A DNA stretch of 61,152 bases, filler included, from Basidiobolus ranarum (Eukaryota), in NCBI GenBank assembly GCA_040143965.1. It is 17 parts of 17 records of this genome, joined end to end, with 100 filler letters (N's around TTAATTAATTAA, not from the genome) between each part and the next. Parts side by side here need not be neighbours in the genome. Positions count along the whole stretch, not along the records: positions 39,681 to 43,178 come from JASJQH010009326.1; 16 more parts are not named here. The stretch is one strand, 5' to 3'. The notes under the pieces were generated by a model. The model was not told the origin of the DNA, did no database searches, and saw only the letters and a list, made by a program, of their open reading frames with translations. Numbering within the stretch: position 1 is the first letter of the stretch; each line of letters begins with the position of its first letter. A program made the position numbers and the translations under genes. Shown here piece by piece: positions 3,619 to 58,589 of this stretch.

Positions 3619-4530
3619 AGATTTTCAGATAATTGAGAGGTACTGTGGATCTATGCTTAAAGTACACATATTCTGGATCAAACTTTGATCTGATGGCATA
3701 TCCAGTTGCAAATTGGGCAAGAGATATTGAAGACAGGTGATCTACAACAGGATACTTATTTCTTTGCTGTATTGGAGCTATTTCTTGTATTTCAAACAGA
3801 CAACCTACCATAGCACTTTCAGCAACAGAAGCTAAATATATGGATGCCTGTGAAGCACCAAAAGAAGCAATACGGTTAAGAAAGCTCTTAACAGATTTGA
3901 GTTATCCACCAAATTCACCAACTACAACATTTCAAGATAAACAAAGTTCTATCAAATTACCCATATATCCCATGTTTCAGAATAGAAGCAAACATATAGA
4001 TATTAAGCATCACTTTGTTGGAGAGACTATAAAAAATAAGTTTAATGACTTAACTTATTGTTCTACAGAAGACATGTTTGCTGATATATGTACCAAACCA
4101 TTAGCTAGACCAAGATTTGAGAAATTTAGACCTTTAGACTGTAATTAGGATTAGTTTATATGACTATTTAGTTGAGGGAGAGTGTTGAAGTTAGCTGTGC
4201 CCAAACACCTATATAGTCATATATAGCTTAGTACTTACTTATCTTATAATTCACTAAGAAATTATTCATTATTCCAAATTGGAATTTACTTGGAGTATTT
4301 TTACCAACTTAGAAGTTGTCAGATACATAAATTTTTCAAACTTGTGCTAGAAGCCCCAAAATTAGCAAACATCTTCCTGGGACCTTCCTTAACACATTCT
4401 ACATGTTTGTTTGTCCACATTTTGACAAAACTATAAATGTCAGCTTTCTACTTTATAAATCAACAAGTGAAAACCACAAATTCCTCTAATTCTTCAAACC
4501 ACTTCAAACAGGCCCCCAAATACTACAACA
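3619..4530 (+). mobile_element. Copia RNase H 3' end with PPT and 3' LTR (family A, 4183-4530)
   Basis: RNase H motifs ([38 protein letters not shown]). PPT GAGGGAGAG, then an LTR bounded by TGTTG...CAACA. Confidence 0.92.
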
Positions 4531-10745: not shown

Positions 10746-11017
10746 NNNNNNNNNNNNNNNNNNNNNNNNNNNNNNNNNNNNNNNNNNNNTTAATTAATTA
10801 ANNNNNNNNNNNNNNNNNNNNNNNNNNNNNNNNNNNNNNNNNNNNCTGTAGGGCTACCATCTCTCTTGATACCATGCCATATAGGCTTATCATTTTCTTC
10901 AAAAGTTTCTTCGTCGTAAGTATGTAACTGATGTTTCTTCTTGTGCTTCATGCTCACGTTGCTTTCTGTTTCTGATATATGTATCATAACTAAAGTTAAC
11001 TAAGATATTGAATAAAG

Positions 11018-19870: not shown

Positions 19871-21571
19871 TGATAAAGTTGTGTAGTGGAATTGGAAGTG
19901 TTTTGGGCAAGACTCGGACTTGTGAATTAGACACTTGTGTTTTACTGAATTGAATGTGTCCTATTTATAATTTACTATGATATAGGTCTACTGGACATGC
20001 TTAGATCATAACAAACATGCCTGTTAAGCATGGGTTAAAATTTGAGGTAATTTGGAGAAAGTTTGAGAAAACAGTGAAAATTGGTATAAGCAATCTTCTT
20101 AATATTTCTATCAATTAGAGCAATAAGCACATGTTTTTGAATGACAGAGTTGAGTGCCAAATAATCAGAATATGAATAAACTAGTTACTAAATAGTGAGC
20201 TGCTATTTACCTACTTTCAACATTCCCACTTAACTAATTATTTTATATTTCTCTTCAACCTAACTTGTAACTTAATTATTCAAATTGTTCATTAGCTAAA
20301 GGTTTGGTTAAGATGTCAGCAATCATTTCTTTAGTTGGGCAACAGACAAGTTCAAAAATTTCAATCTCTATTACTTCTCTAACAAAGTCATGCCTAAAAT
20401 CTCTATGTTTGTTCTAACATGAAATGTTGGGTTTTTAGCTAATGTAACACAACTCTGATTGTCTTCAAATACAGTAATAGCAAGTTTTTGCATGTATCCT
20501 AAGTCTGTAAATAACTTCCTTAACCACAAAGCTTCTTGTGTAGTAACCAAGGCAGCCATATACTCTTCTTCTGTAGTGGAAAGTGTTATGACTGATTGCT
20601 TCTTACTATTCCAAGTTGTGGCTCCATAACCATAGGGAAAAGTGTACTCAGTTGATGATCTTCTTTCATCAAGGTTTCTTCCCCAGTCTGCATCACTGTA
20701 GCCTTCAAAATTTTGTGCATTAGGAGTGGCAGAGTATTCAGAACTTGATCTACAGTTTCTCTCAAATATCTGAATATTTGTTTTACTGCAGCTTTGTGCT
20801 CAGATCCTGGATTTTTGAGATATTGGCTGACAGTTCCCACTGCCACAGTAATGTTTAGATGTGTTCCAACCATTGTATGCATTAAACTACCCACCATGGA
20901 TTGATAAGAGTACTCCTGGCTTTGAATTGAGTCATTTTGGGCCAAATCAGATGAAATTTTAATTAATTTGACATTTGGATCCATTAGTGTTGATACAAGC
21001 TTTCTATTCTCCATGTTGAGCATTTTAGGATGTCTAGGATGTATCTAAACTGATTCAGCATCATTTTCTGATTGAGTTTATCTCTCTTGATTTGGATTCC
21101 AAGAAAATAACTTAATTCAGCCATATCAGTCATTTGAAATTGGTATGATAAGCTGCTTTTCATCTGATTAAGTGCTTCTAGATCATTTGTGGCTATGAAT
21201 AAGTCATCCACATATAGTGCCAAGATAAGGATCCTATTTCTGGTTGTTTTGATGTAAATACTGCAATCTGCTGCATAATTTTGGAATTCTAGTGATACCA
21301 AATAGGTATCTATCTTGTTGTAACATGCCCTGGATTCCTGCTTGAGTCCATATAGGAATTTTTGCAGTTTACAGACCATATCAGGATGTTTTGGGTCAAC
21401 AAATCCATCTGGTTGCTCCATATAGAAATCTTTTTCTAGATTTCCATTTGATGTAGATCAAGGTTATGAACAGCTGAGAGTGCCAGGATTGATCAAAATA
21501 GAGCTAAACTTAGCTACTGGAGCAAATGTTTCATTAAAATCAAATCCTGACACCTGGGAATAGCCTTTTGC
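19871..21571 (-). mobile_element. Copia RT and RNase H with PPT and 3' LTR (family C, 19871-20222)
   Basis: MEQPDGFVDP...LYGLKQ; LALYVDDL; YQSMVGSLM; EALWLRKL...FEDNQSC. PPT AAGTGGGAA, then TGTTGAAAG. Confidence 0.93.
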
Positions 21572-21671
21572 NNNNNNNNNNNNNNNNNNNNNNNNNNNNN
21601 NNNNNNNNNNNNNNNTTAATTAATTAANNNNNNNNNNNNNNNNNNNNNNNNNNNNNNNNNNNNNNNNNNNN

Positions 21672-22317
21672 AAGTTGTGAATCCTTCAAACTTTGACAAA
21701 TGACATTAAAGGCCTTCTTGTCTCTTTTCTTGTAAGCTTCCAATAAAGAAGGGTCAGAAGGTTCCTTTTCATATCCAGAGACTACATCCCAAAGCTCCCT
21801 GTCTTCCAGCATGATTTGCATCTTGAACTTCCAGAAATTGTAATTTTCTCCATCAAGCTTTTCAACACTTGAGCTAATAAAAGTGGTAGTAGTGGTTTCT
21901 GTCATGCTGTAAAGGTTAGAACATGGGGTTCATAACCTATTGGGATAATATGGGCTGTTTGGAGGAACTTTAGAAGAGTGGAGTTGTAATTAGCTTTGTG
22001 AGATAATTGTTTATTGTCCAGAAATAAAGCATTTATACATTTTGGTGGAAGTACTGAAAAGTAACACTGGGGTTGTGCTCAGAACATCTGTGGGAGTAAG
22101 ATGAGCTATCTTTGGGGCATTTTGGACAAGTTTGAAATTTCTAATATGGAATTGCTAATTCTCACATTATTCACATATATATATATAATTTATGCTCCAA
22201 TATGCAGATAAGTGATATTTGACTAAGTAGTGTTAACTAGCTTATATGTGATATATGAGATAGTTAGGTGTATAAAGATAGAGATAACAAATATGATAAA
22301 GACAATAAACTTCAACA
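21672..22317 (-). mobile_element. Copia 5' end: family B LTR (21938-22317), PBS and gag N-terminus
   Basis: LTR TGTTGAAG...CCCAATA, PBS GGTTATGAACCCC, gag VEKLDGENYNFWKFKMQIMLEDRELWDVV. Confidence 0.9.
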
Positions 22318-22953: not shown

Positions 22954-23725
22954 AACAACCAAAAATAGCTTAAATCACACATTCTTGGATTCAAATGAAA
23001 GCCAGAAATATCCTTATCAATCTATGGTTAGTAGTATGAAGAATGTTGTGGTTGGAACATCACCCAATATTACATACTCAGTGGGAGTGATGTGCCAAAA
23101 TCTTCAACATTATTGAACTGATCTAAACATAGATATTGAAGACCAGAGATCTACAACATGATACTTATTTCTTTGCTGTAATGGAGCTATTTCTTGGAAT
23201 TCAAACAAACAACCTATGAGAGCACTTTCAACAACAGAAACAGACTACATGGCTGCTTGTGAAGCAACAAAAGAAGCAATATGGTTAAGAAAACTCTTAA
23301 CAGATTTGTGCTATTCTTAAAATTCACCAACTACAATATTTCAAGAAAATCAAAGTTGTATCAAGTTAGCTAGAAGTCCCATGTTTCATACTAGAAGCAA
23401 ACATATATATTAGACATCATTTTGTTAGTGAAACTATAGAGAATAAGCTTATTGACCTAGCTTATTGTTGTACAGAAGACATGATTGTTAATATATTAAC
23501 CAAACCATGAGCTAGACAGAAATATAAGATAGCTAGAACTTCCTTAGGATTAGTTTATATGACTATTTAGCTGAGGGAGAGTGTTGAAATTAGCATTGCC
23601 TAAACATCTATATAGTCATATATAGCTTAGTATTTAGTTATCCTGTATTGAACTAAGATATTTCTCTTAATTCTCAACTAGAATTTACTTTGAATATATT
23701 TACCAATTAGAAGTTCTTGGACACA
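22954..23725 (+). mobile_element. Copia RT and RNase H remnant with truncated family A LTR (from 23582)
   Basis: Nucleotide similarity to 15820-16680; PPT GAGGGAGAG followed by TGTTGAAATTAGC. Confidence 0.85.
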
Positions 23726-34053: not shown

Positions 34054-34867
34054 GGCAAATTGGGAAGAGATATTGAAGACAGGAGATCTACAACAGGATA
34101 CATATTTCTTTGCTGTAAAGGAGCTATTTCTTGGAATTCAAAAAAACAACCTACCATAGCACTTTCAACAACAGAAGCTGAATACATAGCTGCCTTTGAA
34201 GCAACAAAAGAAGCAACATGGTTGTGAAAACTCTTAACCAATTTAAGTTATCCTCAAAATTCACCAAATACAATATTTTAAGATCATCAAAGTTGTATCA
34301 AATTAGCTAAAAATCCCATGTTTCATAATAGAAGCAAATATATAGATATAGGCATCACTTTATTAGTGAGACTATAGAGAATAAGTTAATTGACTTAACT
34401 TATTGTTCTACAGAAGACATGATTGTTGATATATTAATCAAACCATTAGCTAGACAGAAATTTGGAAAATTTGGACCTTAATTAGGTTTAGTTTATATGA
34501 CTATTTAGTTGAGGGAGAGTGTTGAAATTAGCATTGCCTAAGCACCTATATAGTCATATATAGCTTAGTACTTAGTTGTCTTGTAGTTCACTAAGATGTC
34601 ATCCATTATTCTTGATGGGAGTTTACTTGGAATATTTTTACCAACTTAGAAGTTCTCAGATATATAGATTTTTCAAACTTGTGGTAGAAGCCCTAAACTT
34701 TGCACGCATGTTCCTGGGACCTTCCTTAACATATTCTACATGTTTGTTTGCTTACATCTTGGCAAAACTGTTAATGTCCACTTTCTACTGTATAGATCCT
34801 CAGGTGAACAGCACCAACTCCTCTAATTCTCCAAACCAATTCCAAGAAGCTCCCAAATACTTTGACT
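34054..34867 (+). mobile_element. Copia RNase H with PPT and family A LTR (34520-34867)
   Basis: [13 protein letters not shown]...[25 protein letters not shown] homologous to 16538-16887. Confidence 0.92.
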
Positions 34868-37108: not shown

Positions 37109-38807
37109 TCAAGCAGAAGGGCCACGTGTAACATTTACCTCAGTGGTCTTCCCGAACATACTGTCAGTATAGCCAAGAACTTCATTTAACACACCCTCTT
37201 TGTATTCTGTCAAGTTCGCCTTTCCCATTGCGGTCGAGATCTTAGCGGCACTGCGAAGGAAGCGGTCTTGAGCGATGATCCAATCAGCACCAACCAGCTT
37301 TCGATCTCTCTTTTTAAATTGTCCATCCACTATGACATGCTCAATATCTCCTGTATTTGAGTGCAGCACAATGGCTGCGACAGCATCCTTCCATCCCAAC
37401 AGGCCTGGTCTATTGGTGTCGAAAACTACTAGATCAGCCTTTGCACCAACCTTTAAGACGCCAATATCATCTCTTCTCAGAGCAAGGCCACCATTCCTGG
37501 TTCCCATTAAAAAAGCTTGATCGACCGTCATACCGCTATTCGAGGGCATTCGGCCTTGCTCAATAACCATGTCATACATTGTAAGCCTCGTAGTTTGTAA
37601 ATTGATCCTCATCTGAGTAATGATGTCGGTGGAGAACGCAATATGGGTATCTACTCCAAGTGATCCCTGGTCCTGAATACTGTAACTATAGGGATGTCCA
37701 TGACCGTAATGCATCTCCGATTCGGAAGTTGTGGATATATATTGATTGGCTCTACGAAGAAGTTCTATTTCTTGTGGGGTAATGTAAGAAGCATGAGAGA
37801 ATATAATAGGTGTTTCAATATCCAAGAGGTTGTATTTGTCCAACACTTCTACGGAATGAAAACCATCTGGTAAAAGTATTAGCATAAATGTGATGAAATG
37901 CTCGGTGTGAATTAGGCCTGACATACCTTGAAATATTCCCCCCATATAGTGGGTTGTGATAAGTGATAGATTTTGCTTTCTGTTTTGATGTAGATGAGTT
38001 AGTGGGGAAATGATACGAAAGAAAGAATTCCATGATATCATACTTTGCGAAATCGAATATACTGACAACCTGTTCCTCGGGTAGGCTCAACTGATCATAT
38101 GCGAGGCCGATATTCACTCGGCCACCACTTAAGGGCTGATTTGTAGCCATTTCTGTAATCTGAGCAAGCTGCCACGATGTAGTATTTTTATCCAGTACAT
38201 ATGGGTTACTCTGAATGGGAACCGGTTGAACCGCGTAGCACCACCAAATGCGATTTCCACTATCAATAGAGGCTTGAAGCCCCGCCTGAGCTGTTTCCTT
38301 TGACCAGATATGATGTGCGTGATCTACAATGCTGGTTACGCCGGCATCAATAGCCTCGTACAGTCCCATGAGCTGTCCTATGTAGACATCTTCAGCATCG
38401 AATATTTGTGCAGCTGGACCGAATTGACTAAATGTGTACATATATTGGTCCAGAGCGGCATTTCCCCCCTGTGTACGGAAAGCAGTCTGCCAACCATGGC
38501 GATGCGTATCAACAAACCCAGGAGTGACAATTCGGCCTGTAACATTGACAATTTCGGTATGGGGAGGGATATCTGTGACGATGGCGCCGATTTCGGCTAT
38601 AGCATTATTGATGATTAGCAGAGAACCATGGATTACCTCAAGAGAAGCCGTTGTCTCATTGTAGGTAATGAAAGTTCCTCCTTGAAGAAGGATAGCAGTG
38701 TTAGTGGAGCCCTCAGATAATCCCTGTCTCTTGAGGATTGGAGAAGCCTGGGTTGCTAAAGAAAGGAGCGCTAGTATTGATTGAAGCGCGGCTAGTATTC
38801 TAAGCAT
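37109..38807 (-). CDS. Amidohydrolase-family metalloenzyme (MTA/SAH deaminase-like) with N-terminal signal peptide, three exons
   Basis: PGFVDTHRH metal motif, GVTSIVDHAH, FSHA, SEMHYGHG, LGVDT, IGVLKVGAKADLVV. Introns at about 38043-37980 and 37926-37867 (GT-AG). N-terminus MLRILAALQSILALLSLATQA. Confidence 0.9.
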
Positions 38808-39790
38808 TTTGATAAATATTGCACAGTAATTATTGAGATATTGCAATCACTTGAAACTTTAGAAAACTGTATGTACATACACCTGTATATATAGAGATGT
38901 ACCAAACAGTGCTGAAACTCCTAGTGAGCTTTGTCAGAAAGGCACTTGACTGACAAAGTCAATGAGTAATTGGATAAACTGCACCTCTAAAGAGCCGAAC
39001 CAAACGGCATCAGGAGCTAGGATTATCAAGCAAGGAGATTGTTTGGTTGGAAAAATCGGCAATGTTTATGCTAGTAAAGCCAGTCATGGTTGGTTTAGTC
39101 ACTTTTCTCTCGCTCACGATTGGTTGTACGCGCAGTCATATCATACGCAATTGATTACAAATAGTCACGAACTTTTTCATTTCCAACCGTATCTAATCAC
39201 ATTCCCTTTTCTGACACCGGGTATTCACTCAACTTATCCATATTTTATTTACGTTAAGCATTAACTATTGTCAGTAGTTCAAAGTGACTTTTTCCAAATC
39301 AGTAAGCCATAAGCTTACTAAATAAGCTGTCAAGGTTATTGCTTGCGCTTAAATCTACACAGGAAATTAATATTTATTGACTCCTCTTTCTGGAATAAAG
39401 TACTCCATTATAGCTCGGCCAATGGCCAAGAGGTTCTCACCAACCACAATCATGAATCTCAAAACCTAGCTAGTTCATACATATTTCCGAACACTGATAT
39501 ATAAAGGCTTTAACGATGGCTAGTTCTGGAATCCTTAAATGAATTATTCCAGGAAATAATGACTCTAATTATGAGACTTCNNNNNNNNNNNNNNNNNNNN
39601 NNNNNNNNNNNNNNNNNNNNNNNNTTAATTAATTAANNNNNNNNNNNNNNNNNNNNNNNNNNNNNNNNNNNNNNNNNNNNCTAAGTGATATTTGACTAAA
39701 TAATGTTGACTAACTAATATGTGATGTATGAAATAGTTAGGTGTATAAAGATAGGGATAACATATATGATAAAGACAATAAACTTCAACA

Positions 39791-40775
39791 AGTTCATGGT
39801 TGGTTGTTTAAGATATATCATGAATGGCCAGAGATTGCATATTCTGTGGTAGTTAAATTCCAGTTTCTTCAAAATTATGGATCTAATCAAATCATAGCAG
39901 TTAAGCATATTTTCAAATATTTGAAAGGTACTATGGATCTGTGAATAAACTATACATATGCTGGATGAAACTTTGAACCAAGACAATACTCAGATATAAG
40001 TTGGGGAATGGATATAGAAGACAAAAGAACTACAAAAGGATATATGTTTTATGCCATGATAGAGCTATTTCTTGGAATTCAAAGAAACAACCTGCTGTAG
40101 CACTTTTGACAACATAAGCAGAATACATGACTCTTTGGAAGCAACAAAAGAAGCAATATGGTTAAGAGCACTCTTAACCAATTTGGGAAATTCTCAAATT
40201 TCACCAACTACAATATTCAAGATAGTCCAAGTTGTATCAAATTAACAACATATCTCACATTTCATATTAGAAGAAAAAACTTAGATATTAGAAGTCATTT
40301 ATTAGAGAGACTATAGAGAATAAGTATATTGACTTATGGTACTACCAAAAACATGATTGCTGATATATTGACAAAACCATTAGCTTGACAAAAATTTGAG
40401 AAATTTAGACCTTCTGTACAATTAGCTTATATGACTACTTAGATGAGGGAGAGTATTCAAACTAGCATTGCCTAGACATCTTTATAGTCATATATAGCTA
40501 AGTAACTAGTTATTCCATATAGAACTATGATATAACCTCAAGAGGAATATACTTAGAAGTTCTCACATATATAGATTTTTCAAACTTGTGCTAGAGGACC
40601 CAAACTTTGCACACATGAGCCTGGAACCTTTCTTAGCACATTTTACATATTAGTTTGCTTGTATCTTGAAAAAACTATAAATGTTGACTTTCTACTTAAT
40701 AAATCAATTAGTGGAAACCACCAATCTCTCTAGTTCTCCAAACCACTTTCAACAGGCTCCCAAAAAACTTTAACA
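39791..40775 (+). mobile_element. Copia RT and RNase H remnant with family A LTR (40454-40775)
   Basis: PEIAYSV...AVKHIFKYLKGT, PPT GAGGGAGAG, LTR homology. Confidence 0.85.
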
Positions 40776-41097
40776 GCCCCAACTCCCAAAATACTACTCT
40801 TTGATATAAACAGAGAAATTAATGACTAATGCATCAAGGGTCATTGTTGTAGTGAAAAATCCTGGGTTTTAATGGTACATTTTGACTGATAATTATGATT
40901 AGATATGGATTATTTAATAGATCACATCAAAGAATCTCCAATTCTTACAATAACACTTCACATTTGAAATCTAGATTGGAATAAATAATACTGAAGTACA
41001 AATCCAAAGCGAAGTCAGATATATGTTAGGATACATAAGTATTATTATTTCAGAAATATTCAAGTTGCACTTCAAATTTCCAAAGCTATTCAAATTA

Positions 41098-41848
41098 ATC
41101 GATGGAATGAAGCCTCTTAATGGAAAACGGTTAAATGGCTTGTTTTGGAGAGCTTTGCACATGCTTGACAGTCTGGCACATGCCTTTATATGCTTGAGAG
41201 GGTTGCTTTTGCAGTCATAATAGAATGAGTCTTTTGCAAATCGATAATCTGTCAAATACGAGCCAAAAAGATTATGGATCATATCCAAATCGTTTGAGGA
41301 CAGAATTTTTTTAGATATATCTTCAATATTTCTTGACGAAATAGCCAGCTTGGCCTTCTTTATATGCTCTGTTGTTGTCTCTTTATAGCTGCCGTAATCT
41401 CTTTCTCGTTTCCCCGTTCTTCTTCATTTCACTTTCCAGCGCTTTGATTATTTCATTTTTCCTCAAGAGCAAGTTAGGAAATATTCTAAGTTTGTTTCCG
41501 AATTGAAGGCTAACCCCGTTCAGATAAGCAGTGACAATTTTTGGTTCGTATGAACAGTACTAAAAGCCCTTATCCCAATACTTGAGTATTAGATCTTTGT
41601 AACTCTTGCTTCTGTCGAAGCTTTCTGTTTATCTGGCTTGTAGTTATTGAGGAGTGACAAAAAAACTTCATTAAAAAAGCCAACATTAATGAAATCTTCC
41701 AGAGGAGACGCAGGATTATATATATAAACGTATTTGACACAAGAGTATGAACGTTAACCGCAAGTGACATGAGTAATGGAAAGTATTGTGGTTTCTACCC
41801 AATACCAGCGATTGAGCTTTTGGCTGCTATAATCTTTAGAGGTTCCAT
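41098..41848 (-). pseudogene. Fanzor1-like (eukaryotic TnpB homolog) N-terminal half, frameshifted, no RuvC part seen
   Basis: Joining frames gives MEPLKIIAAKSSIAGIG*KPQYFPLLMSLAVNVHTLVSNTF / LEDFINVGFFNEVFLSLL / SYKDLILKYW...KIVTAYLNGVSLQFGNKLRIF / KKAKLAISSRNIEDI...YRFAKDSFYYDCKSNPLKHIKACARLSSMC...FNRFPLRGFIPS. These resemble blocks I recall from fungal and viral Fanzor1 proteins (FF.EVFLSL; TAYlNni..hFG..LR; siYYD.k..P; FPLr...P). Confidence 0.65.
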
Positions 41849-43278
41849 AAAGAGAAGAGAAAAGGCGAATTGACATCTTTTTTAGTTTACAGGTAAAGAG
41901 TTTGTTAAGCATATACTCTCAAAAAATAAACTAATGAGTTACAGCAATGAATTACACAATTTGTCTACAATTTTTGTATGTTCACTTATCTCATAGTCGT
42001 CTTATTACGTTTGCATAGGTACTGAAGTTCAGCTGGATTTGAAAATTTTGACAGATTCATCGGTGACAAGGTGTAAGAGTGGTGGCTTAGGCACGAGAAT
42101 GAATACTAACATGAGAGTGTGTTGGGTGTATAAACAGGCAAGACTCTCTCTCCAAACTCAAACTCATCCACTTTGAAGAAATAAACATACCATACGTATT
42201 CTATTCCAAACAACAAACCCGATATATCCAGTAATTCCCAGTGCTGGTTAGGCTAAGAGTCAGCCAAAGTTTGCTAAGTTAATGGGTGATTGATTAATAT
42301 ACTGGGCAAAATTTCTTCTTGGTTATGAATGTTACTTTTCGTGTGTAAATGGAGCGTTATACACCTACGCACCCTACTCGCAATATGGTATTCATTGATT
42401 AGAAGGATCGCATTATTGGTGTGCGGCTGACCAGGATGCATAATACTATTCTTGGGTTGTATCTAATGAGTTCTTAACTGGAACTCAACTAATTTGCTTA
42501 ATTGAGGCAAGAGTGCCTAACAGGTTTCGAGTACCCAAAAGAAACTCATGAAAGAAGTCTTCTTCGATTGGCTCAAGTTAGCTACAAAATTGAAGCTAAA
42601 AGTATAACTGCATCGGTCCCACGTTACACCAAAACGAGCGTGGATGGATGGTTATTCCGGTTGTTGCGGTTATTGGGCTTATTGGGCTTATTGCAGCTAC
42701 GCATAAACCATTATAGAGGTAGTGCTGGGACCCGTTGAGCCAAACGCTCCCCTACAAACTCCACATAAAAGGTACGATTGATCCATGCACAATTAGGTCG
42801 GGATTCAACCAAAAGCTTGATACTAATATAGACACAGATATGGTTGAAAAGGGAGAGACCATATCCGGCTTCTTTTTTAGATCACTTAAGCTAAACTAGG
42901 ACATCCAATCTTCTGCTCAGAAGAGTAATGGCGCGTATGGTTTCAGCCTAGACGATGCCAATCGTGAGTGCACCCTGATCACAACTAATCCATGTTCATC
43001 CTCAATGCCGAATGATATGCCGGGAATTCTCCTGAGTCTCTGCAACACTCACGTACTCGCGTCCGTTGACTCGTTGGTTGACGTGGTTTGGAGAGAATCT
43101 TTCGATCACTGTCTGCCCGCACAGAGGCTTGATACCGATCTGAGAAAGATCTCTCGATGCGCCCGATTTGTCGCACGTNNNNNNNNNNNNNNNNNNNNNN
43201 NNNNNNNNNNNNNNNNNNNNNNTTAATTAATTAANNNNNNNNNNNNNNNNNNNNNNNNNNNNNNNNNNNNNNNNNNNN

Positions 43279-43400
43279 TCCTTTGCACCCTGGCAAGTAT
43301 TTATATCTTCCCGAATGAAGCTTCGGTTTGCAAAGGCTTGAGGAGCAACACTGAAATGGAAGAGAATATCAAAAATCAATTCGTGTTTTTGGTTTCATGG
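43279..43400 (+). repeat. Host-type sequence homologous to 27700-27821; flank of the viral-like segment
   Basis: Ungapped alignment, 102 of 122 identical by manual count, same open reading frame. Confidence 0.9.
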
Positions 43401-44367
43401 CGAACACATTATGGACGGCATCGTATTTACCCACAACAAACATTACCACAACAAAATCTACAAATGGAAACATATCGGCACCACCGTCGATCTAGAATGG
43501 AATCCTCTTACCCAAAAATTATCCTGTGGTAACCCACCCCAAGAATTTGACCCAGCAACATCTGGCATCACTAACGTCTTAGACCCCCAACATATCCTTG
43601 ACGTCACAGGTATCTACGAATTTAACATCCTCGAACAACATACCCTGATCTGCTCCAAAAAACGTCCTGACAGAGTTTACGGCAACAACTTAGCCATTGT
43701 CAAAAAAAATATCCAAGACGCCTTAGGCCCTACCCTTTTAGATGGAACACAACAAACTTTCTTCGACCTATGGATCAACATAATCCAAAATATTATGACG
43801 TACACCCCAAACTTTCCCACAGTAAATATCCTACATTTACCAAACTATCCTGACGTTAACACCAAGTACAACATTATTACCCTCTTCCAACTCGATCACG
43901 TCCCAGAACACTTCTCACAACTCCAACCCCTCTTACACCCAATCTCCAAAATTATTGGTATCACAACAAATTTCCCCCATATCCAACAAACCTTAGAAAA
44001 TTACGGCCTCGTCTGCAGATACCAAAGACCCATAGATCTATCCCTCTTCGCCCCAGATACAGAACTTAAACTTCTACAAACTCACACTATCTACGAATTC
44101 TCTAAACCAAACGTCTCCTGGCTTAAATGCAAAGAAACACAACCCCTCCCCGCACATTCTCCTCCCCCTAACATAATCTTCCTCGACACCACACATTCAT
44201 GGGAACCAAAAAAATTATCCAAACCTAAATCTTATTCCAACAAATATATCTTCACCACTCAACACCAAACACAACCTTTCACGATAGACCAACTAAATCT
44301 CTTCCCTCACAATCACCCCCTCGTCCAACAAGCCCTACTTAGACTCAACCATAAATATATTTTTTAA
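43401..44367 (+). CDS. Viral-type mRNA capping enzyme, C-terminal part (guanylyltransferase motifs IV-VI plus reduced methyltransferase-like region), 5'-truncated
   Basis: MDGIVFT (motif IV), IYKWK (motif V), TVDL, IYEF and KRPDRVYGN (motif VI-like OB fold). Downstream KYNIITLFQLDH...LLHPISKIIGITT...LENYGL resembles cap N7-methyltransferase core segments. No introns. Confidence 0.75.
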
Positions 44368-44464
44368 AAACCCTTTTCTTCAACCCTTTTGAATCTATTT
44401 CCCAAATCTATTATTCATACTAACTACACGTATCGCACGCCAATCCCCACCCCGCATACCCATT

Positions 44465-45301
44465 ATGTCCCAAACCATCCTCGGTAAAAAATTTGTTAAA
44501 AAATTACCCCCCATAGACGGACGTGGTATAATTATTCAACACAGCGGGAACCGAATGTATTCCAAATTTGACAACCTAAACGCATTCCAACATTGGTACC
44601 TTAACCTTAAACCAACCCAACGTGTCTTCGCCGAAATTATCGGTACCGGCCCCCAAAAATTTAGATTAGATCTCGACGGTGATATCGTCGACCCCAAACT
44701 CCTTATCCAAGACGTCACAAACTTTTTCGAACTTATGGGCCATGGCACCCCCACCATCCAATTTTACGATATCTCCTCTCCAAACAAACTGTCATATCAT
44801 CTAATAGTCTCCTCCCATTACTTCCTTAATAATATATCTTGCAAAATTTTTGTCGACAGCTTAATGCAATATGCCAAAACTTCCAAATGGACTCTTAACG
44901 CCGACACTGGCGTCTACAAATCTGTCCAAGGTTTCCGACTCGAAGGCAGCACCAAATGGCAACAAAACCGATGGAAATACCTCTTCGGTACCCAACAAAT
45001 TAACAAACGATATTTCTGTGACGGACTTCTGGGCATCGTTAATCCCCAAACTATGCGCCTAATAACTATCCCCCACTCCCAACTCCAAAAACATCTCTCT
45101 TCCCATAAATCCTCCTTGGGCATACCCTCCCACTCCATCCCAACCGGCTTCAAGATTAGACAAACACTAGACAGTGGCCTAATAACATTAGACCGTATTA
45201 AACCAACCTTTTGTGAATTATGCAATAGAACCCATGAACACGAAAATGCATACATGATCGATAACAAATTTATTTGTTTCCGTTTCTCCACTAAAAACTA
45301 A
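44465..45301 (+). CDS. Archaeo-eukaryotic primase (NCLDV/herpes/PrimPol-like) with C-terminal Zn finger, complete 278 aa
   Basis: FAEII, motif I FRLDLD, motif II KLSYHLIV, motif III ADTGVYKSVQGFRLEGSTK, Zn finger FCELCNRTHEHENAY...FICFR. Confidence 0.85.
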   Translation: MSQTILGKKFVKKLPPIDGRGIIIQHSGNRMYSKFDNLNAFQHWYLNLKPTQRVFAEIIGTGPQKFRLDLDGDIVDPKLLIQDVTNFFELMGHGTPTIQFYDISSPNKLSYHLIVSSHYFLNNISCKIFVDSLMQYAKTSKWTLNADTGVYKSVQGFRLEGSTKWQQNRWKYLFGTQQINKRYFCDGLLGIVNPQTMRLITIPHSQLQKHLSSHKSSLGIPSHSIPTGFKIRQTLDSGLITLDRIKPTFCELCNRTHEHENAYMIDNKFICFRFSTKN

Positions 45302-45350
45302 TAGAATCCTTTTTTAAAACACCTCCCCCATCCCCCCATCTTAACATACC

Positions 45351-46776
45351 ATGGAAATTAACCTCTTCTCCGACGAACAAATCCTCAAACTTGCCGACTT
45401 CTGTCTTAACGAACATTGGGATATATACGATTCCAAATTCGGCCCCCGTACCCATGGAGATACATGCACCAAATGCAAAAAACATTGCAGTGGACACTAT
45501 GCATATCTAGACATAGGAAAATATATCTGCCACCCACTGTTCACAAAAGACCTCGAATTAAAACTTAACAACATGTGCATCTCCTGTGGACTTAATATCT
45601 CCAACCCTGATGAAACTAAATGCCCCGAATGCAAAACTAAAATCTCTCGTAACTATTACGTCACAAAAGATGGTACCGTTTTACGCAAACCCACCTCCAA
45701 ATCCTCCAAAGACTCTGGCACCAAAATATCCCTGGACAAAATTCGATCTTCCCTACAAAAAAACTTCGACCGTCACAACAACTCTAACCTCACCAACTAC
45801 ATAATTAGATACATCATCATCCCCCCCATCCAAACTCGATCCCCCGAAGATCCCGAATATATGTCCGATTTCTCAACCAAGTACACCAGACTAGTTAATT
45901 ACACCAAAAATAACGATACCTCTAACATCTACCATACTTACTCCAAAATTGTTGGCACCAAACGAACAGAAGGTATGGGCAAATTCTTCTCCGGAAAAAA
46001 TGGTATCTTTCGCGATATTATGTTAGGCAAACGTACGGAAAGATCTGCCCGTAGCGTTATCACCGGAGATCCCTATCTAGATTACAATACTATCTTCATC
46101 CCCAAATACATCTCTGACAACATTCGTATCCCCATCCGTATTCACAAATACAACATCAAACACTTCTCCAAACAAAAAAATATCTTTTTCCCCAACGGCG
46201 ACTCCCCAATCGATGACCCAGACTTAATTTTTATAAACCAAAATTACGAAAGATTATTATCAGATAACGACGAAGTTATTCTTAACCGCCAACCTTCCCT
46301 AACTAGCACTTCCGTCCTGGGATTTAAAGTTAAAATCCGAAAAGATAACATCAAAACCATCTCTATTAATCCCCTGGTAACCCCATTCTTTAACGCAGAT
46401 TTCGATGGCGACGAGATGAATATTTTTGTTATCCCAAACATAGAACACGAATTTAATATGTTACTTGAAGTCACAAACACCAACCCCCCGTCCCCTATTC
46501 AAGATACTATCACAGGGTCCTATCTTATGACTCTGAATGATGAAGCAATACCTCCCGAAATTTTCATGGATTGCTTCTTATTATCCAAAAAAACAGTCTT
46601 TCCAAAAAATATACGCTTTTCTGGCAAAAACTTATTTCGTCTGGCCATACCAACAAAATGCGATACTACCTTATACAACAGCGAAATTGTCACCAAATCT
46701 GTTTTAAATCATATCCTAAAAAAATTAACTTCCAAACAAGGCGTAGAGTTTGTTTCTAACCTCCAAAAAATCTGCA
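45351..46776 (+). CDS. DNA-directed RNA polymerase largest subunit (RPB1/beta-prime-like), compact viral type, 3'-truncated
   Basis: Zn clamp CTKCKKHCSGHYAYL...HPLF...CISCG...CPEC; GKNGIFRDIMLGKRTERSARSVITGDP; VILNRQPSL; catalytic FNADFDGDEMN; PIQDTITGSYLMT. No introns. Confidence 0.95.
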
Positions 46777-47539
46777 NNNNNNNNNNNNNNNNNNNNNNNN
46801 NNNNNNNNNNNNNNNNNNNNTTAATTAATTAANNNNNNNNNNNNNNNNNNNNNNNNNNNNNNNNNNNNNNNNNNNNTTATAGAGTTCTTCATACCCAAGG
46901 TTCAGCTCATATCCAACATGGGTTTGTATAAATATCACCATTAAAGCCCATCATTGTATTAACATTGCTGAATCAACATCTTCTTGCTATCTGGCAGATA
47001 CCCTGCAATAATGTGCCACTATGTATTAAGTTCTTCCCACATATCTGCACCATCAACACCAGACTGAATGTCAAGTTGAATGTTCTTCTTTAGAAGCCAC
47101 TTTATGCTTACTTGTACTGCATTTTTCCATTCATACATTTGAAAATACTCCTCAAGCACTTTTACAATTTTCATTCATCCTTGTAGGGTGACACTACTGA
47201 GTGTTCTTTGCAGTGTTTGTGTGGCTTTCTGCTTGCCTTTAAGCTTGAGTCTAATTTAATCACTTTGAAAGTACCAGTTGAGGTTGGAGAGCTACGAGTT
47301 TTATTTGCTGATATTTTGGCTTCCTCCAATACCAAAGTTCTCACCATAAAGCTGATGGAATCACCAATATACCTCTATGAAAAATATGGGAAGGAATACC
47401 AGAGGAAAACCAGAGAAAACACAAATATGGAGGTAGTAATACCATAAGATAATTGGAGGAAAAAAAGATTGGTAGAGATACCATAAGATAGTTGTTGCAA
47501 TACCAGCATAATACCATTATAAAACAATAAGAAAATGGT

Positions 47540-48260
47540 ATGAAATGCAAATCTAATTTTTTTTGTTAGGGATACTTGATGGGTATCACTACCAGAATCT
47601 GAAATGTCCAAGTTTCCTTGAGAACATGTATAATCATGCATTTGCATTGGCTCAGGATTGTTTCTTGCTAAACAAATATACCGTTGGAAAGGCTTGCTGG
47701 CCAATAATATTAATCAACTTGAATCTTCCTCCTTCTGAACAGTATAAGAGTCTTAACATTTTGAAACTATCCATCATATCTGGACCTAAATCACCACTTC
47801 TTATAGATAGCTTCTTGAAGCCTTTGATTGTGGAATTTGAATGGTTATATAATGGGGTTCAGATGGGTGAATGTTTTATTAAAGCTAATATCATTGTATG
47901 TATTGGTGATACTGCTGCCATTTAGTAAACTTGGAGGTTTTGACAGGCACACTGTACTATCTTGCTGCAGGTTTTGTCAAATCAATGGAGTCAACTCAAT
48001 CAGGCATATGCATTACTACTATCCAAATACACAACTAACCTTCATGATTTTACCATCTAGAGCCCAGTCAGATTTCAACATGATCACTGATATCAATTCA
48101 CCAAATAGTCAGTCTAACATCAAACTTGGTATTAGCCATAATCCTAAGATTATATTACTAAAGGGGCTCAGCTGGAGCCAAAGCTTCCCATTAGGCACTA
48201 TGTACTTACAATTCAACAACATTCCAATATTACTCACTCAGCTATATACTGGCAAATGCA
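47540..48260 (+). mobile_element. CACTA/EnSpm Tnp2-type transposase remnant
   Basis: ALAQD...WPIILINLNLPPSEQYK...IISGPKSP...DSFLKPLIVE...GDTAAI..LGGF..H...CCRFC: the NLPP / GPk.P / FL.PLv.E / D.pA..k.g / C..C pattern of Tnp2-family transposases. Confidence 0.8.
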
Positions 48261-48429: not shown

Positions 48430-50373
48430 CTAAAAATATGATGGTATCTTGATATTTTCAAGCATTTTCCCAATCAATTCAAACTTTGATCCTATCTCAA
48501 ATGGCTCATTGATATTGAACTTTCCACTGTATAGCTGAGTGAGTAGTATTGGAATGTTGTTGAATTGTAAGTACATAGTGCCTAATGAGAAGCTCTGGCT
48601 CCGGCTGATCACCTTTAGCAATATAATCTTAGGCTTATGGCTAATACCAAGTTTGATGTTAGACTGACTATTAGGTGATTTGACATAAGTGATCATGTTG
48701 AAATCTGACTAGGCTCTAGGTGGTAAAATTGTGAAATTTAGTTTTGTATTTGGATAGTAGTAATTTACATGCCTGATAAAGTAGACTCTATTGATTTTAC
48801 AAAATCTACAGCAAGATAGTGGCTTGTGCCCACAAAAACCTCAAAGTTTACTGATGGCAGGTGTGTTGCCAATACATACAATGATATTAGCTTTAATATA
48901 ATATTCACCCATCTGCACCCCATTAGTTAACCATTCAAATTCTGCAATCAAAGTCTCCAAGAAGCTATCTATAAGCACTGCTAATTCAGGGCCAGATATG
49001 ATGAATAGTATCAAAATATTATAACTCTTATACCATCCCAATGGAGGAAGATTTAAGTTGATTAAAATTATTGGCCAGGAAGCTTGTTCAACAGTATATT
49101 TGTTTATTGAGAAACCATCCAGAGCCAATACAAATGCATGACCATAAGTGTTCTCAAAGAAAACTTGACTTTTTGAATTTTGGCAGTGATATCAATCAAG
49201 TATATTGGTAATACCATCAGCTTTATGGTGAGTACTTTGGCATTGGATCAATTAACTATATTTGGTGATTTCATCAAAACTTCAAGACAGGGAATCAATT
49301 GTATGTAAGCCAAATATAATTGATATTTACCTGATTCAGTGTTTGCCAATTGTGTGCAAACAGTATATGACTTCAGGCTTTTCAGACACAGGTGAAAGCC
49401 AAATAACCATTTGGACATGAAGGTAGCTTAATTACTGAAGGATTTCAAGTAATATCATTGACAAGTGTTTTCCACTTGTACCAGATCTGTGGAAAGCAAC
49501 AGTTGCCAATAAACTGTGGTAAAAGTGTAAGAAAACCAACAAACACCTGGTTACTAAGATTGGCTTGAACTCTCCACTCCTGAATGATCAAAGCTGCTTC
49601 CTCTATAGTAGGTGTTATGAGTGGACTAATACTTGCTGATAACAAAGAGTCTGTATCAAATCCAATGTCTTCTTCTTCAGCTTTGGATTTACTTCCCTCA
49701 GTACTGGAAAAACCAAGGTCAACATCCAGCAGAATGTCCTCAAAGTTGTTTGGACTGACCGGTTTGACCAAAGTTTCATTTCTGGCAACATCATTCTGGT
49801 CATATAACTGAGGTGACTCTACAGTATCTTGACTTTCATCAGTGTTACCAACACTTTGAGGCAAAGCACAGCTAGTGGACTCAGTGGGCAAAGCCAGATT
49901 TGATTTTGTGCCCTTATTACTGTTTATATTCACCAGGCTTTGTGCAGCTGGTGGCTTTGTACAGTGACTGTGCTAGTGATTATTATTTCTATAAAACCTT
50001 TGGCTTTCATAGCACAAGAATTTGTGACAAAAATAGTAGGGCTTCTTTAAATGTTTGTTTTGTGACATGACAAGGATATTATGGAAAAAAGAACATCTCC
50101 TACATGAGGGTGGTATTTTAGGTATAGCCCATCAATATCATCAGCTGATTCTGAGACGGTGTCATAGATGAGTCATCAGGGGATTTACAAGATATTTCTG
50201 GTAATTGATTGCAATTTTGGCTTATTATAAGCTGTTTCTGAGCAATTTTTTACACCAACTTTACCATCTGAAAATTTCAATACCATTCAAAAAGCATTCA
50301 AAATCAAAATGAAAATTGACTTCCAAGCCAAAGCCTGCTGGCACCAAGGGAAAAAAACCAGCAACAACAGAGG
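48430..50373 (-). mobile_element. Second Tnp2-type transposase copy, with upstream low-complexity N-terminal region
   Basis: ALDGF...WPIILINLNLPP...SGPE...DSFLETL...GNTPAISKL. Reverse complement of 47560-48258. The 49445-49933 region matches 52730-53133. Confidence 0.8.
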
Positions 50374-57239: not shown

Positions 57240-57751
57240 AGTTTCTCGGTTCTCAAAATGAATTGGAAAGCAGTAGATTCTTTGGAAGTACTTTATATTA
57301 ACGTGACTAATTTATGCATCCATTATTATTGGCGGCCATTTTCCTAGATTGGTAGAGCGTCGTTATATGTTTTTCCTTTCTACCGTTTAAGAAAACGGTG
57401 TTTGCGTATTACAATCAACTGTTGTCTCTTTCTGACTGTAACTCATACCGACTTATTGAAATCATGTGCATCAGTTACCTATCAAAGACTCAGCATTTCA
57501 TATATTATGAACAGTAACACACTGTGCTCATTCTCAAATAGCACACATTGTTCGGCTACTNNNNNNNNNNNNNNNNNNNNNNNNNNNNNNNNNNNNNNNN
57601 NNNNTTAATTAATTAANNNNNNNNNNNNNNNNNNNNNNNNNNNNNNNNNNNNNNNNNNNNCTTTATTTCTTGACAATAAACAATTATCTCACAAAGCTAT
57701 TCACAACTCCACTTTTCTAAAGTTCCTCTAAAAAGCCCATATTTTCCCAAT

Positions 57752-58589
57752 AAAATACACATATTCTGGATCAAACTTTGATCTGATGGGATATTCAGAT
57801 GCAAGTTGAGGAAGAGATATTGAAGACCAGAGTTCTACAACTGGATACTTATTTCTTTGCTATAATGGGGCTATTTCTGGAATTCAAATAAATAACCTAC
57901 TATAGCACTTTCAACAACAGAAGCAAAATACATAGCAATATGGTTAAGAAAACTCTTAACAGATTTAGGTTATTCTCAAAATTTACCAACTGCAATATTT
58001 CAAGATAATCAAAATTGCATCAAATTAGCTAAATATCCCATGTTTCATAATAGAGGCCTACATAGAGATATTAAGCATCACTTCATTAGAGAGACTATAG
58101 AGAATAAGTTTATTGGCTTAACTTATTGCTCTACAGAAGACATGATTGCTGATATATTAACCAAACCATTAGCTAGACAGAAATTTGGGATATTTAGACC
58201 TTTATTAGGATTAATTTATATGACTATTTAGTTAAGGGAGAGTGCTGAGATTAACATTTTCTAAGCTCCTATATAGTTATATATAGCTTAGTACTTAGTT
58301 ATCTTACATTTTGCCAAGATATTATCCATTATTCTCAATTGGAATTTAGTTGGAATATTTTACCAACTTAGAAGTCCTCAGATATATGTACTTTTCAAAC
58401 TTGTGCTAGAAGCCCCAAAATTTGCACACATGTTCCTGGGACCTTCCTTAACACATTCTATGTGTTAGTTTGTTTACATGTTTATAACAATATAAATGTC
58501 AACTTTCTACTTAATAAATCAATGAGTGAAAACCACCAATTCCTCTAATTCTCCAAACCACTTCCAACAGGCTCCCAAATACTTTAACA
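57752..58589 (+). mobile_element. Copia RNase H with family A LTR (58243-58589)
   Basis: DIKHHFIRETIENKFI..TYCSTEDMIADILTKPL; PPT AAGGGAGAG; LTR homology. Confidence 0.9.

What the first reader, a model, noticed from the sequence alone, without database searches (positions are those of the whole stretch)
41098..41848. Cryptic Fanzor1-like RNA-guided nuclease remnant split across several frames
Seen: four peptide blocks in shifting minus-strand frames, which the ORF track shows only as unrelated short ORFs. Known: Fanzors are eukaryotic TnpB homologs carried by transposons and giant viruses. From memory, these blocks match fungal Fanzor1 N-terminal regions. Similarity stops after FPLRGFIPS, so the RuvC half and omegaRNA appear lost. 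Inference: this genome has hosted a Fanzor family, and intact copies with their own TAM and omegaRNA may exist elsewhere.
Basis: partly seen in the sequence, partly recalled or inferred. Interest (0 to 1): 0.7.

Follow-up and report, generated by a model that had tools for sequence, protein, structure and literature searches.

The report
Dead Fanzor1 gene fragment in Basidiobolus
This is a broken, front-part-only leftover of a Fanzor1 RNA-guided nuclease gene in a Basidiobolus fungus; such leftovers are ordinary, but it is so similar to copies in the distantly related mould Rhizopus that the mobile element probably jumped between the two fungal groups.

Summary
Window 41848-41100 (minus strand) is a decayed copy of the first ~277 codons of a Fanzor1 (Fz1) gene. 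It has 2 in-frame stops, 4 frameshifting indels and 4 in-frame deletions. Homology ends abruptly after the ...FIPS codon at 41100.

The 108-aa piece hits solved Parasitella parasitica Fanzor1 (9cf0, E 5.7e-12). It also hits Rhizopus proteins (E to 2.4e-37, 64-71% identity), whose full-length form matches 9cf0 at E 1.6e-140.

A metagenome contig (L001) encoding the Rhizopus-type protein shows the near-intact element: 2.86 kb, 135-nt terminal inverted repeats, one Fz1 gene. The window keeps about 30% of it. It has no inverted repeats, no RuvC/zinc-finger half and no 3' end where the guide RNA would lie. It cannot work.

A flanking gene places the window in Basidiobolus (93% to B. ranarum). Yet the fragment is about 82% identical in ungapped DNA to the Rhizopus element (third codon positions 71%; dS 0.45-0.65; dN/dS ~0.19). 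This points to horizontal transfer between fungal phyla, though an AU tree test was inconclusive.

Whether intact copies exist elsewhere in this genome could not be tested. Interest is low to moderate.

The parts
41100..41884 (-). Core of the remnant: DNA homologous to positions 2184-3051 of the Rhizopus-type Fz1 element L001. This covers 36 nt of leader plus the first ~277 codons of the gene.
   Evidence: blastn gives 73.5% identity over 871 columns including gaps, E 3e-162. Ungapped identity by codon position is 86-88 / 88 / 71-72%.
41846..41848 (-). Retained ATG start codon (MEP.LKII...). It is the same start as in B. ranarum P0008 and in the L001 reading frame.
41747..41848 (-). Coding segment 1, with an in-frame stop at 41797-41795 (TAG where L001 has TGG).
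41610..41744 (-). Coding segment 2 (...LEDFINVGFFNEVFLSLLNNYKPDKQKASTE). It is reached through a frame change near 41746, where the window lacks 21 + 10 nt present in L001.
41413..41607 (-). Coding segment 3. It is reached through a 1-nt deletion near 41609. It contains an in-frame stop at 41562-41560 (TAG where L001 has CAG) and a 45-nt (15-codon) deletion.
41381..41410 (-). Coding segment 4 (10 codons), lying between a 1-nt deletion near 41412 and a 2-nt insertion near 41380.
41100..41378 (-). Coding segment 5 (93 codons, ...FPLRGFIPS). It is the best preserved block and includes the stretch that aligns to residues 698-783 of the tagged PpFz1 chain 9cf0_P.
41885..41975 (-). Possible further leader remains. 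This is a weak patch collinear with L001 2089-2124 and is not significant on its own.
   Evidence: blastn E 2.7; MAFFT alignment columns ~385-430
40776..41099 (.). DNA behind the 3' breakpoint. It is unique in the window and has no Fz1, Pfam or Rfam match. A BLAST extension to ~41007, seen with 6 queries (3 of them as far as 41004-41007) out of 81, is not supported by the profile search.
39824..40775 (+). Fragment of the 3' part of a copia-type LTR retrotransposon. Its 3' end faces the truncated end of the Fz1 remnant. Related copies lie at 15900-16887, 34062-34866, 57749-58589, 3621-4520 and 23129-23661.
   Evidence: copia-type Pfam domains in the fuller copies

Best explanation
The stretch is a dead fragment, cut at both ends, of a non-autonomous DNA transposon with terminal inverted repeats whose only gene is a Fanzor1 (Fz1) RNA-guided endonuclease. 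The element is of the family that is abundant in Rhizopus arrhizus/delemar. In an intact element (reference: contig L001) 135-nt inverted repeats enclose about 360 nt of leader, a gene of roughly 700 codons with one short intron, and a short tail. By analogy with characterised Fz1 systems, the guide (omega) RNA is made from the 3' end of the gene and the right end of the element, and the protein's RuvC and zinc-finger (TNB) half cuts DNA next to a short target-adjacent motif. The window keeps only 36 nt (perhaps ~130 nt) of leader and the first ~277 codons. By inference these are the N-terminal, REC and part of the WED region, which bind the guide-target duplex and the target-adjacent motif. 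They are broken by 2 nonsense changes, 4 frameshifting indels and 4 in-frame deletions. Both inverted repeats, the catalytic half and the guide-RNA region are gone, so the fragment can neither cut DNA, make a guide, nor move. It lies in a transposon-rich intergenic stretch of a Basidiobolus chromosome. Its synonymous divergence from the Rhizopus element is low, and most of that divergence accrued under purifying selection. This suggests the family entered the Basidiobolus lineage, or left it, by horizontal transfer long after the two phyla split. It was active for a time and this copy then decayed. Shown: homology, lesions, truncation, host assignment and divergence values. Inferred: domain assignment, guide-RNA position, horizontal transfer and its direction, and the cause of the truncation.
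For: Identity as Fz1:
- Searches give PDB 9cf0/8gkh matches to the piece itself, to its Basidiobolus paralogue and to its full-length Rhizopus homologue.
- 22 of 22 long family members carry the RuvC half.

Decay:
- Searches (protein level; DNA level against L001) agree on 2 stops, 4 frameshifts and in-frame deletions of 3, 21, 45 and 3 nt.

Truncation:
- No match to the L001 left repeat, leader, 3' 1.3 kb, tail or right repeat anywhere in the window, except short chance-level hits.
- No RuvC half by tblastn or by profile.

Reference element:
- L001 has inverted repeats at 1721-1855 and 4446-4580 (135 nt, 89% complementary).

Host:
- The amidohydrolase ORF 2.3 kb away is 93% identical to B. 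ranarum and 75% to B. meristosporus. The only Mucoromycota protein among the 120 listed hits is 50% identical (Bifiguratus).

Transfer:
- Third-position identity is 71-72% against 27% expected at random, and the 35 aligned leader bases are 83% identical.
- NG86 gives dN 0.125 and dS 0.654; LWL85 gives 0.122 and 0.446, over 238 codons.
- Window and P0008 are 68-71% identical in protein to R. delemar/arrhizus copies. Those copies are only 51-61% identical to the Fz1 of other Mucorales, including R. microsporus.
- In the trees, window + P0008 form a clade (100/97) placed beside R. delemar P0001 inside the R. delemar/arrhizus group.
- All other named close relatives are Mucorales.
- PMC10432273 (passages read) already proposes spread of Fz among eukaryotes.
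Against: - The AU test does not reject a tree that keeps all 17 Mucorales rows together (p 0.53). The long Syncephalis branch can attach to the Basidiobolus pair, so nesting inside Mucorales, and hence the direction of transfer, is not shown.
- No host-gene dS between Basidiobolus and Rhizopus could be computed as a control. That synonymous sites between these phyla are saturated rests on general knowledge, not on a call.
- L001 is an unnamed metagenome contig. Its Rhizopus origin is inferred from a 99.6-100% identical protein named Rhizopus arrhizus / R. oryzae.
- Two of the four frameshifts lie in short homopolymer runs and could be assembly errors. L001 itself has a +1 shift in a T run.
- No inverted repeat or target-site duplication was found in the window, so the remnant's status as part of a transposon rests on L001 and on PMC3627910.
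- The rest of the genome could not be searched.
Confidence: 0.85

Rival explanations
1. The frame changes are introns or assembly errors, and the locus is an intact, possibly expressed gene for an N-terminal Fz1-like protein, such as a domesticated DNA-binding fragment.
For: Two frameshifts (near 41412 and 41380) lie beside short G/A runs. B. ranarum P0008 is also an N-terminal-only gene model of 247 aa. dN/dS of 0.19 shows past constraint.
Against: The frame changes are 1-, 2- and 10-nt indels inside conserved coding sequence, with no intervening intron-sized DNA. There are two substitution-type stops (TGG>TAG, CAG>TAG). The first comes 17 codons after the ATG. There are also 21- and 45-nt deletions of conserved residues. 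The low dN/dS is expected if most divergence predates inactivation.
Confidence: 0.03
2. The family is an old vertical resident of both phyla, or of a common ancestor, and its similarity to Rhizopus copies reflects slow evolution rather than horizontal transfer.
For: The AU test does not reject Mucorales monophyly (p 0.53). Fz1 occurs in many early-diverging fungi (PMC10432273; PMC3627910 Table 1). Syncephalis has distant members.
Against: dS is only 0.45-0.65, third-position identity is 71-72% and non-coding leader identity is 83%. The cross-phylum protein identity (68-71%) exceeds the identity between R. delemar copies and those of other Mucorales (51-61%). A flanking host protein reaches only 50% to the best Mucoromycota hit.
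Confidence: 0.15
3. The Fz1 fragment arrived as cargo of the giant-virus-like insertion that lies 1.5 kb away (43342-46775). It belongs to that endogenous viral element rather than to an independent transposon insertion.
For: The neighbouring block encodes an AEP primase of the giant-virus C962R type (atlas score 0.96, 10 of the ten best family-bearing hits agree). It also encodes a highly divergent N-terminal half of an RNA polymerase large subunit. This fits the 'fundsalphavirus' endogenous elements reported in Basidiobolus and several Mucoromycota and said to spread by cross-species transmission (PMC7017919, passages). Giant viruses are known carriers of Fz1 (PMC3627910, PMC10432273).
Against: The viral block has an extreme GC skew (-0.28 to -0.66 from 43500 to 47000) that stops before the Fz1 remnant, where skew is about 0. 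The 1.5 kb between them has no viral or Fz1 signal. The closest Fz1 relatives sit in a repeat-bounded transposon in Rhizopus-type DNA (L001), not in viral context. No relative of P0004 was confirmed in the viral contig collection. The region is a general dump of transposon fragments.
Confidence: 0.1

Closest known systems
Rhizopus arrhizus/delemar Fz1 'transposase' proteins (P0001-P0007) and the element on contig L001
   Same: It belongs to the same family. Protein identity is 64-71% or 74% when frameshifts are followed. DNA identity is about 82% without gaps over 41100-41884. It shares the same start codon and leader.
   Different: The window copy lacks both 135-nt inverted repeats, most of the leader and the 3' 1.5 kb (RuvC, zinc finger, tail). 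It carries stops and indels and lies in a different fungal phylum.
Parasitella parasitica Fanzor1 (PpFz1; PDB 9cf0-9cf3; PMC11423790)
   Same: It is homologous across the part retained here. P0008 aligns to chain residues 512-755 and the window piece to 698-783. PpFz1 is a shown omega-RNA-guided DNA endonuclease with REC, WED, RuvC and TNB domains (passages read).
   Different: Identity is only roughly half that seen with the Rhizopus family. The window has no RuvC, TNB or RuvC-insertion domain and no omega RNA region. My estimate that the break lies just before the WED-RuvC loop (PpFz1 about residue 410) is inferred from the paper's R448 and the tag offset. It was not measured.
Fanzor1 families of Mucoromycota in PMC3627910 (ROr, MCi, PBl elements)
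   Same: They are Fz1 genes carried by non-autonomous DNA transposons with inverted repeats in Rhizopus, Mucor and Phycomyces (Table 1 and text passages).
   Different: [quoted passage not shown] L001's ends (TATAGTG...) show no 9-bp duplication and could have a TA duplication instead. Which ROr family L001 corresponds to was not determined. Basidiobolus is not in that paper's Table 1.
Spizellomyces punctatus Fz1 (8gkh) and its degenerate 'ghost' loci (PMC10432273)
   Same: It is a more distant member of the same Fz1 branch (P0004 vs 8gkh E 3e-50). That paper mentions ghost loci as sources of guide RNAs (passage).
   Different: The window fragment keeps the 5' part, not the 3' end that would encode a guide, so it cannot act as a guide-only ghost locus.

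Membership tests
Fanzor1 (Fz1) | Significant sequence homology to experimentally characterised Fz1 proteins | tested here: met
   Window piece vs PpFz1 9cf0: E 5.7e-12. P0008 vs 9cf0: E 3.1e-40. P0004 vs 9cf0: E 1.6e-140, and vs SpuFz1 8gkh: E 3e-50.
Fanzor1 (Fz1) | RuvC nuclease domain with the D...E...D triad (motif D-X-[TS][TS]-X-X-C4 finger-X-RD of PMC3627910) | tested here: not met
   It is absent from the whole window. It is present in the homologues (22 of 22 long members). The locus is therefore filed as a remnant derived from an Fz1 gene, not as a functional member.
Fanzor1 (Fz1) | C4 zinc finger / TNB domain between RuvC-II and RuvC-III | tested here: not met
   It is absent from the window. 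It is present in P0004 (CPSC...C..C).
Fanzor1 (Fz1) | Omega RNA encoded at the 3' end of the gene and the right end of the element | tested here: not met
   There is no match to L001 3052-4580 in the window and no Rfam match at E<=1 except a sub-threshold snoRNA hit. Whether Rfam holds an Fz1 omega RNA model was not checked.
Fanzor1 (Fz1) | N-terminal REC/WED region collinear with Fz1 | tested here: met
   Window 41848-41100 is collinear with P0008 1-246 and P0004 8-168, which align to PpFz1 chain 512-790. Domain names are inferred from PMC11423790.
Non-autonomous DNA transposon with inverted repeats carrying Fz1 | Terminal inverted repeats and target-site duplication | tested here: not met
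   None is present in the window. The reference L001 has 135-nt repeats, but its target duplication is unresolved.
Endogenous 'fundsalphavirus' (giant-virus-like) element, considered for the neighbouring block and as a carrier | Shared genes listed in PMC7017919: split RNA polymerase subunit 1 (RP1n/RP1c), D5 helicase-primase, SAM methyltransferase, RPB2/RPB5, SNF2 helicase, DNA polymerase | tested here: inconclusive
   An RP1n-like ORF lies at 45345-46775. An AEP primase-like ORF lies at 44393-45301 (a feature search only). For ORF 43342-44367 there are only weak leads (capping enzyme 0.82; methyltransferase folds at TM ~0.3). No DNA polymerase, RPB2 or helicase was found in the window. No tree was built.

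The most novel reading that the evidence does not exclude
A repeat-bounded Fanzor1 transposon family crossed between Mucorales (Rhizopus-like) and Basidiobolus, two different fungal phyla. It was carried by a 'fundsalphavirus'-type giant virus of fungi, a fragment of which lies 1.5 kb from the remnant. That would make this locus a physical trace of virus-vectored spread of RNA-guided nucleases between fungi. Cross-phylum transfer by any route I put at about 0.75. The virus-vectored version is the figure given here.
Probability: 0.1. Interest if true: 0.6.

Novelty: new member of a known kind. Interest (0 to 1): 0.3.

Why it matters
The fragment itself is ordinary. Fz1 genes and their debris are known to be common in early-diverging fungi (PMC3627910, PMC10432273), and this copy has no nuclease, no guide RNA and no transposon ends, so it offers nothing for genome-editing discovery.

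Its value is as a marker in two ways. First, it shows that Basidiobolus has hosted the Rhizopus-type Fz1 family. I found no paper holding both 'Fanzor' and 'Basidiobolus'. Second, its unsaturated synonymous divergence from a Rhizopus-type element gives a concrete, testable case of transposon transfer between fungal phyla. Its position beside a giant-virus-like insertion offers a candidate vector. If intact relatives exist elsewhere in the genome, L001 shows what to look for.

Tried and rejected
- Pfam on the four ORF pieces gave 0 families at E<=1. On six homologues including full-length P0003/P0004 it gave nothing relevant at E<=0.01. The precomputed family PF26935 listed was not found by this Pfam copy, and I do not know its name.
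- Whole-genome search: no genome is held.
- Earlier notes of this scan held nothing on this genome or sequence. The word search returned only other genomes.
- Repeats in 40700-43170 were only short, chance-level pairs.
- Rfam on 38800-43400 gave one sub-threshold snoRNA hit.
- The viral contig collection held no confirmed relative of P0004 or of the RNA polymerase ORF. These were single-sequence queries, which reach close relatives only.
- Some BLAST alignments continue past 41100 to about 41007 after an 11-codon gap. I rejected this continuation because the C-terminal profile and the L001 DNA do not support it.
- Strict regular expressions for the RuvC motifs found all three in only 3 of 22 long proteins. 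The patterns were too narrow and many gene models are cut short. A profile search replaced them (22 of 22).
- The AU test for nesting within Mucorales was not decisive (p 0.53). In that tree I kept only the 20 named rows plus the window out of 69. P0018 and P0034 dropped out earlier because fewer than 75 aligned residues remained.
- A 26-30-nt match of L001 3990-4019 to four copia-type copies (best E 4.5e-4) was judged chance or low complexity.

Full report
**What is there.**

The window is AT-rich (GC about 0.35) and looks eukaryotic. No whole genome is held for it. Pairs of 44-N runs recur about every 3.6 kb. I took these for an artefact of how the window is presented.

Between 41848 and 41100 the minus strand carries short stop-to-stop ORFs in different frames. 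A frameshift-aware alignment that I scripted joins them into one collinear match.
- Against Basidiobolus ranarum protein P0008 (247 aa), 161 of 219 aligned residues are identical from window 41848 to 41184.
- That alignment has two in-frame stops and four frame changes.
- Against Rhizopus P0004, 116 of 157 residues are identical for residues 8-168.

The ATG is at 41848-41846 and the last homologous codon ends at 41100.

**It derives from a Fanzor1 gene.**

The 108-aa piece (41423-41098) found 8 proteins at E<=1e-3 among longer proteins. Seven are from Rhizopus delemar/arrhizus (E 8.8e-33 to 2.4e-37, 64-71% identity) and one is from B. ranarum. An exhaustive HMMER search found 73 cluster representatives, 13 of them at E<=1e-10. 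One, P0047, is a repetitive false positive.

Matches to solved structures are:
- P0004 (577 aa) vs tagged Parasitella parasitica Fanzor1, PDB 9cf0: E 1.6e-140;
- P0004 vs Spizellomyces punctatus Fanzor1, 8gkh: E 3e-50, with alignment through the RuvC and zinc-finger stretches;
- the window piece itself vs 9cf0: E 5.7e-12;
- P0008, which covers all the blocks, vs chain residues 512-755: E 3.1e-40.

All 22 of the 22 family proteins of at least 450 aa match a profile seeded with the C-terminal half of P0004. My first attempt with narrow motif patterns found all three motifs in only 3 of the 22 and was replaced.

Pfam did not recognise the pieces or the homologues.

PMC11423790 (passages read) shows that PpFz1 is an omega-RNA-guided DNA endonuclease. 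Its REC and WED domains recognise the target-adjacent motif and the guide duplex, and its RuvC and TNB domains cut. From that paper's residue R448 (the WED-RuvC loop) and the tag offset, I infer that the window's homology ends just before that loop. The retained part would then be the N-terminal, REC and partial WED region. This is an inference, not a measurement.

**It is dead and cut at both ends.**

tblastn with 81 family proteins gave 107 matches, all inside 41004-41842 and none elsewhere at E<=0.01 (for the first eight). A profile of the region behind the FPLR..IPS motif, built from 29 proteins, found nothing in the six-frame translation of the window (best E 0.72).

One scan of metagenome contigs returned L001 (4815 b). 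It encodes a protein 99.6-100% identical to P0004. L001 shows the near-intact element:
- inverted repeats of 135 nt at 1721-1855 and 4446-4580, 89% complementary;
- a leader, then an ATG near 2220;
- a +1 shift in a T run near 2425;
- a 50-nt intron at 4039-4088 and a stop near 4361.

No transposase gene lies between the repeats. The outermost TA of each repeat could be a TA target duplication, and no 9-bp duplication is seen.

Window 41884-41100 aligns to L001 2184-3051 (E 3e-162). Compared with L001, the window differs as follows:
- it lacks 3, 21, 10, 1, 45, 1 and 3 nt at separate sites;
- it has 2 extra nt at one site;
- it has TAG for TGG at 41797-41795 and TAG for CAG at 41562-41560.

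An eighth gap, 1 nt near L001 2425 where the window keeps the frame, is L001's own +1 shift in the T run noted above and is not a lesion of the window.

The left repeat, most of the leader, the 3' 1.3 kb, the tail and the right repeat have no counterpart anywhere in the window. A weak collinear patch suggests that leader homology may reach about 41975. The window thus keeps about 868 of 2860 nt of the element.

An apparent continuation of a few BLAST alignments to about 41007 is not supported.

**Surroundings.**

The remnant lies in a stretch full of transposon debris.
- *39824-40775 (+):* a fragment of the 3' part of a copia-type retrotransposon, with five further copies in the window (Pfam).
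- *40776-41099:* unique DNA.
- *47557-47925 (+) and 48841-49191 (-):* CACTA-type transposase fragments.
- *37109-38846 (-):* an amidohydrolase gene whose product is 93% identical to B. ranarum and 75% to B. meristosporus.

The amidohydrolase places the window in Basidiobolus, phylum Basidiobolomycota. What removed the 3' part of the Fz1 gene is not shown. A deletion linked to the neighbouring retrotransposon fragment is plausible but remains an inference.

**Origin.**

The closest relatives apart from P0008 are all from Mucorales: Rhizopus, Helicostylum, Phycomyces, Spinellus, Thamnidium and Pilaira. A distant family occurs in Syncephalis.

- *Protein identity:* over the 108-aa region the window and P0008 are 68-71% identical to R. 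delemar/arrhizus copies. Those copies are only 51-61% identical to the Fz1 of R. microsporus, Phycomyces, Spinellus or Helicostylum.
- *Trees:* window + P0008 form a clade (100/97), placed beside R. delemar P0001 (91/84) within the R. delemar/arrhizus group (69-row quick tree).
- *AU test:* it does not reject holding the 17 Mucorales rows together (p 0.53). The long Syncephalis branch can attach to the Basidiobolus pair, so nesting and direction are not established.
- *DNA identity:* the DNA is more telling. Ungapped identity to L001 is 86-88% at first and 88% at second codon positions. At third positions it is 71-72%, against 27% expected at random. Identity is 83% over the 35 aligned leader bases.
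- *Substitution rates:* NG86 gives dN 0.125 and dS 0.654. LWL85 gives 0.122 and 0.446, over 238 codons.

Synonymous sites are thus far from saturated between members of two fungal phyla. By contrast, a flanking host protein reaches only 50% identity to the one Mucoromycota protein among its 120 listed hits.

I read this as horizontal transfer of the element (about 0.75), followed by a period of activity under purifying selection (dN/dS about 0.19) and then decay of this copy. The missing control is host-gene dS, which I could not compute.

PMC10432273 (passages) already states that Fz probably moved among eukaryotes. PMC3627910 (passages and Table 1) lists Fz1 families in Rhizopus, Mucor and Phycomyces, some with MuDR-like ends. 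No paper in the library holds both 'Fanzor' and 'Basidiobolus'.

**The neighbour.**

About 1.5 kb away, from about 43340 to 46775 on the plus strand, three long ORFs lie in a block with extreme GC skew (-0.28 to -0.66).
- *ORF 44393-45301:* it resembles giant-virus AEP primases of the C962R type (feature score 0.96).
- *ORF 45345-46775:* this is the N-terminal half of an RNA polymerase large subunit (Pfam Rpb1 domains 2 and 3). It is only 23-31% identical to anything in the database and about equally distant from archaeal and eukaryotic enzymes. Homology ends at the N run at 46777.
- *ORF 43342-44367:* only weak leads.

This fits the endogenous 'fundsalphavirus' elements reported in Basidiobolus meristosporus and B. 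heterosporus and in several Mucoromycota. Those elements have a split RNA polymerase subunit 1 and a helicase-primase, and retrotransposon sequences nearby (PMC7017919, passages).

A virus group shared by both phyla is a conceivable vector for the Fz1 family. However, the skew stops short of the remnant, nothing links the two blocks, and no viral contig held a relative of P0004. I give that reading about 0.1.

**Verdict.**

The object is a non-functional remnant of a known kind of element in a lineage where it had not been noted in the papers I could search. It comes with a reasonably strong sequence signal of cross-phylum transfer. Whether intact copies exist elsewhere in the genome remains untested.

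Noticed in passing
window 43342-46775 (+): This is a giant-virus-like block of three long ORFs. The first is unknown (weak capping-enzyme or methyltransferase leads). The second is an AEP primase of the C962R type. The third is a very divergent N-terminal half of an RNA polymerase large subunit with the NADFDGD motif. The block fits the endogenous 'fundsalphavirus' elements described for Basidiobolus and Mucoromycota in PMC7017919.
   Followed up: partly
window 43500-47000: This block has an extreme strand asymmetry (GC skew -0.28 to -0.66, A over T) although its ORFs of 341, 302 and 477+ codons stay open. The cause is unexplained. It could be native viral composition or one-strand deamination.
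   Followed up: no
window 11012-12743 (+): A FolB-HPPK-DHPS (FOL1-type) gene has an in-frame TAA at 12420-12422. It lies just before the DPGIG stretch of the pterin-binding domain, between Pfam profile positions 168 and 170. This suggests a pseudogene copy, a sequencing error or a strain-specific nonsense change.
   Followed up: partly
window 1219-5058, 14458-16887, 20374-21929, 23129-23661, 34062-34866, 39681-40775, 57749-58589: There are many decayed copies and fragments of copia-type LTR retrotransposons (gag, integrase SH3, RVT_2). One 1-kb 3' segment is repeated at least six times at 74-79% identity.
   Followed up: partly
window 47557-47925 (+) and 48841-49191 (-): Two fragments of a CACTA/EnSpm-type transposase (Pfam Transposase_21) lie in inverted orientation just behind the virus-like block.
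   Followed up: no
window, every ~3.6 kb (e.g. 39581-39624 and 39637-39680; 43179-43222 and 43235-43278): Regular pairs of 44-N runs occur throughout the window. They look like a presentation or masking artefact, not assembly gaps. One pair hides the start of the virus-like block and another hides the end of its RNA polymerase ORF.
   Followed up: no
L001 1-4815: The Rhizopus-type reference element (135-nt inverted repeats, single Fz1 gene) itself has a +1 frameshift in a T run near 2425, which is why the database protein P0004 starts 116 codons late. Upstream, at 1-906, lies an open-ended 301-aa ORF that I did not examine.
   Followed up: partly
protein P0013 (83 aa, on a 538-base contig): This Fz1 N-terminal fragment, 49% identical to the window piece, is labelled Klebsiella pneumoniae in its source. 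It is most likely fungal contamination in a bacterial assembly.
   Followed up: no
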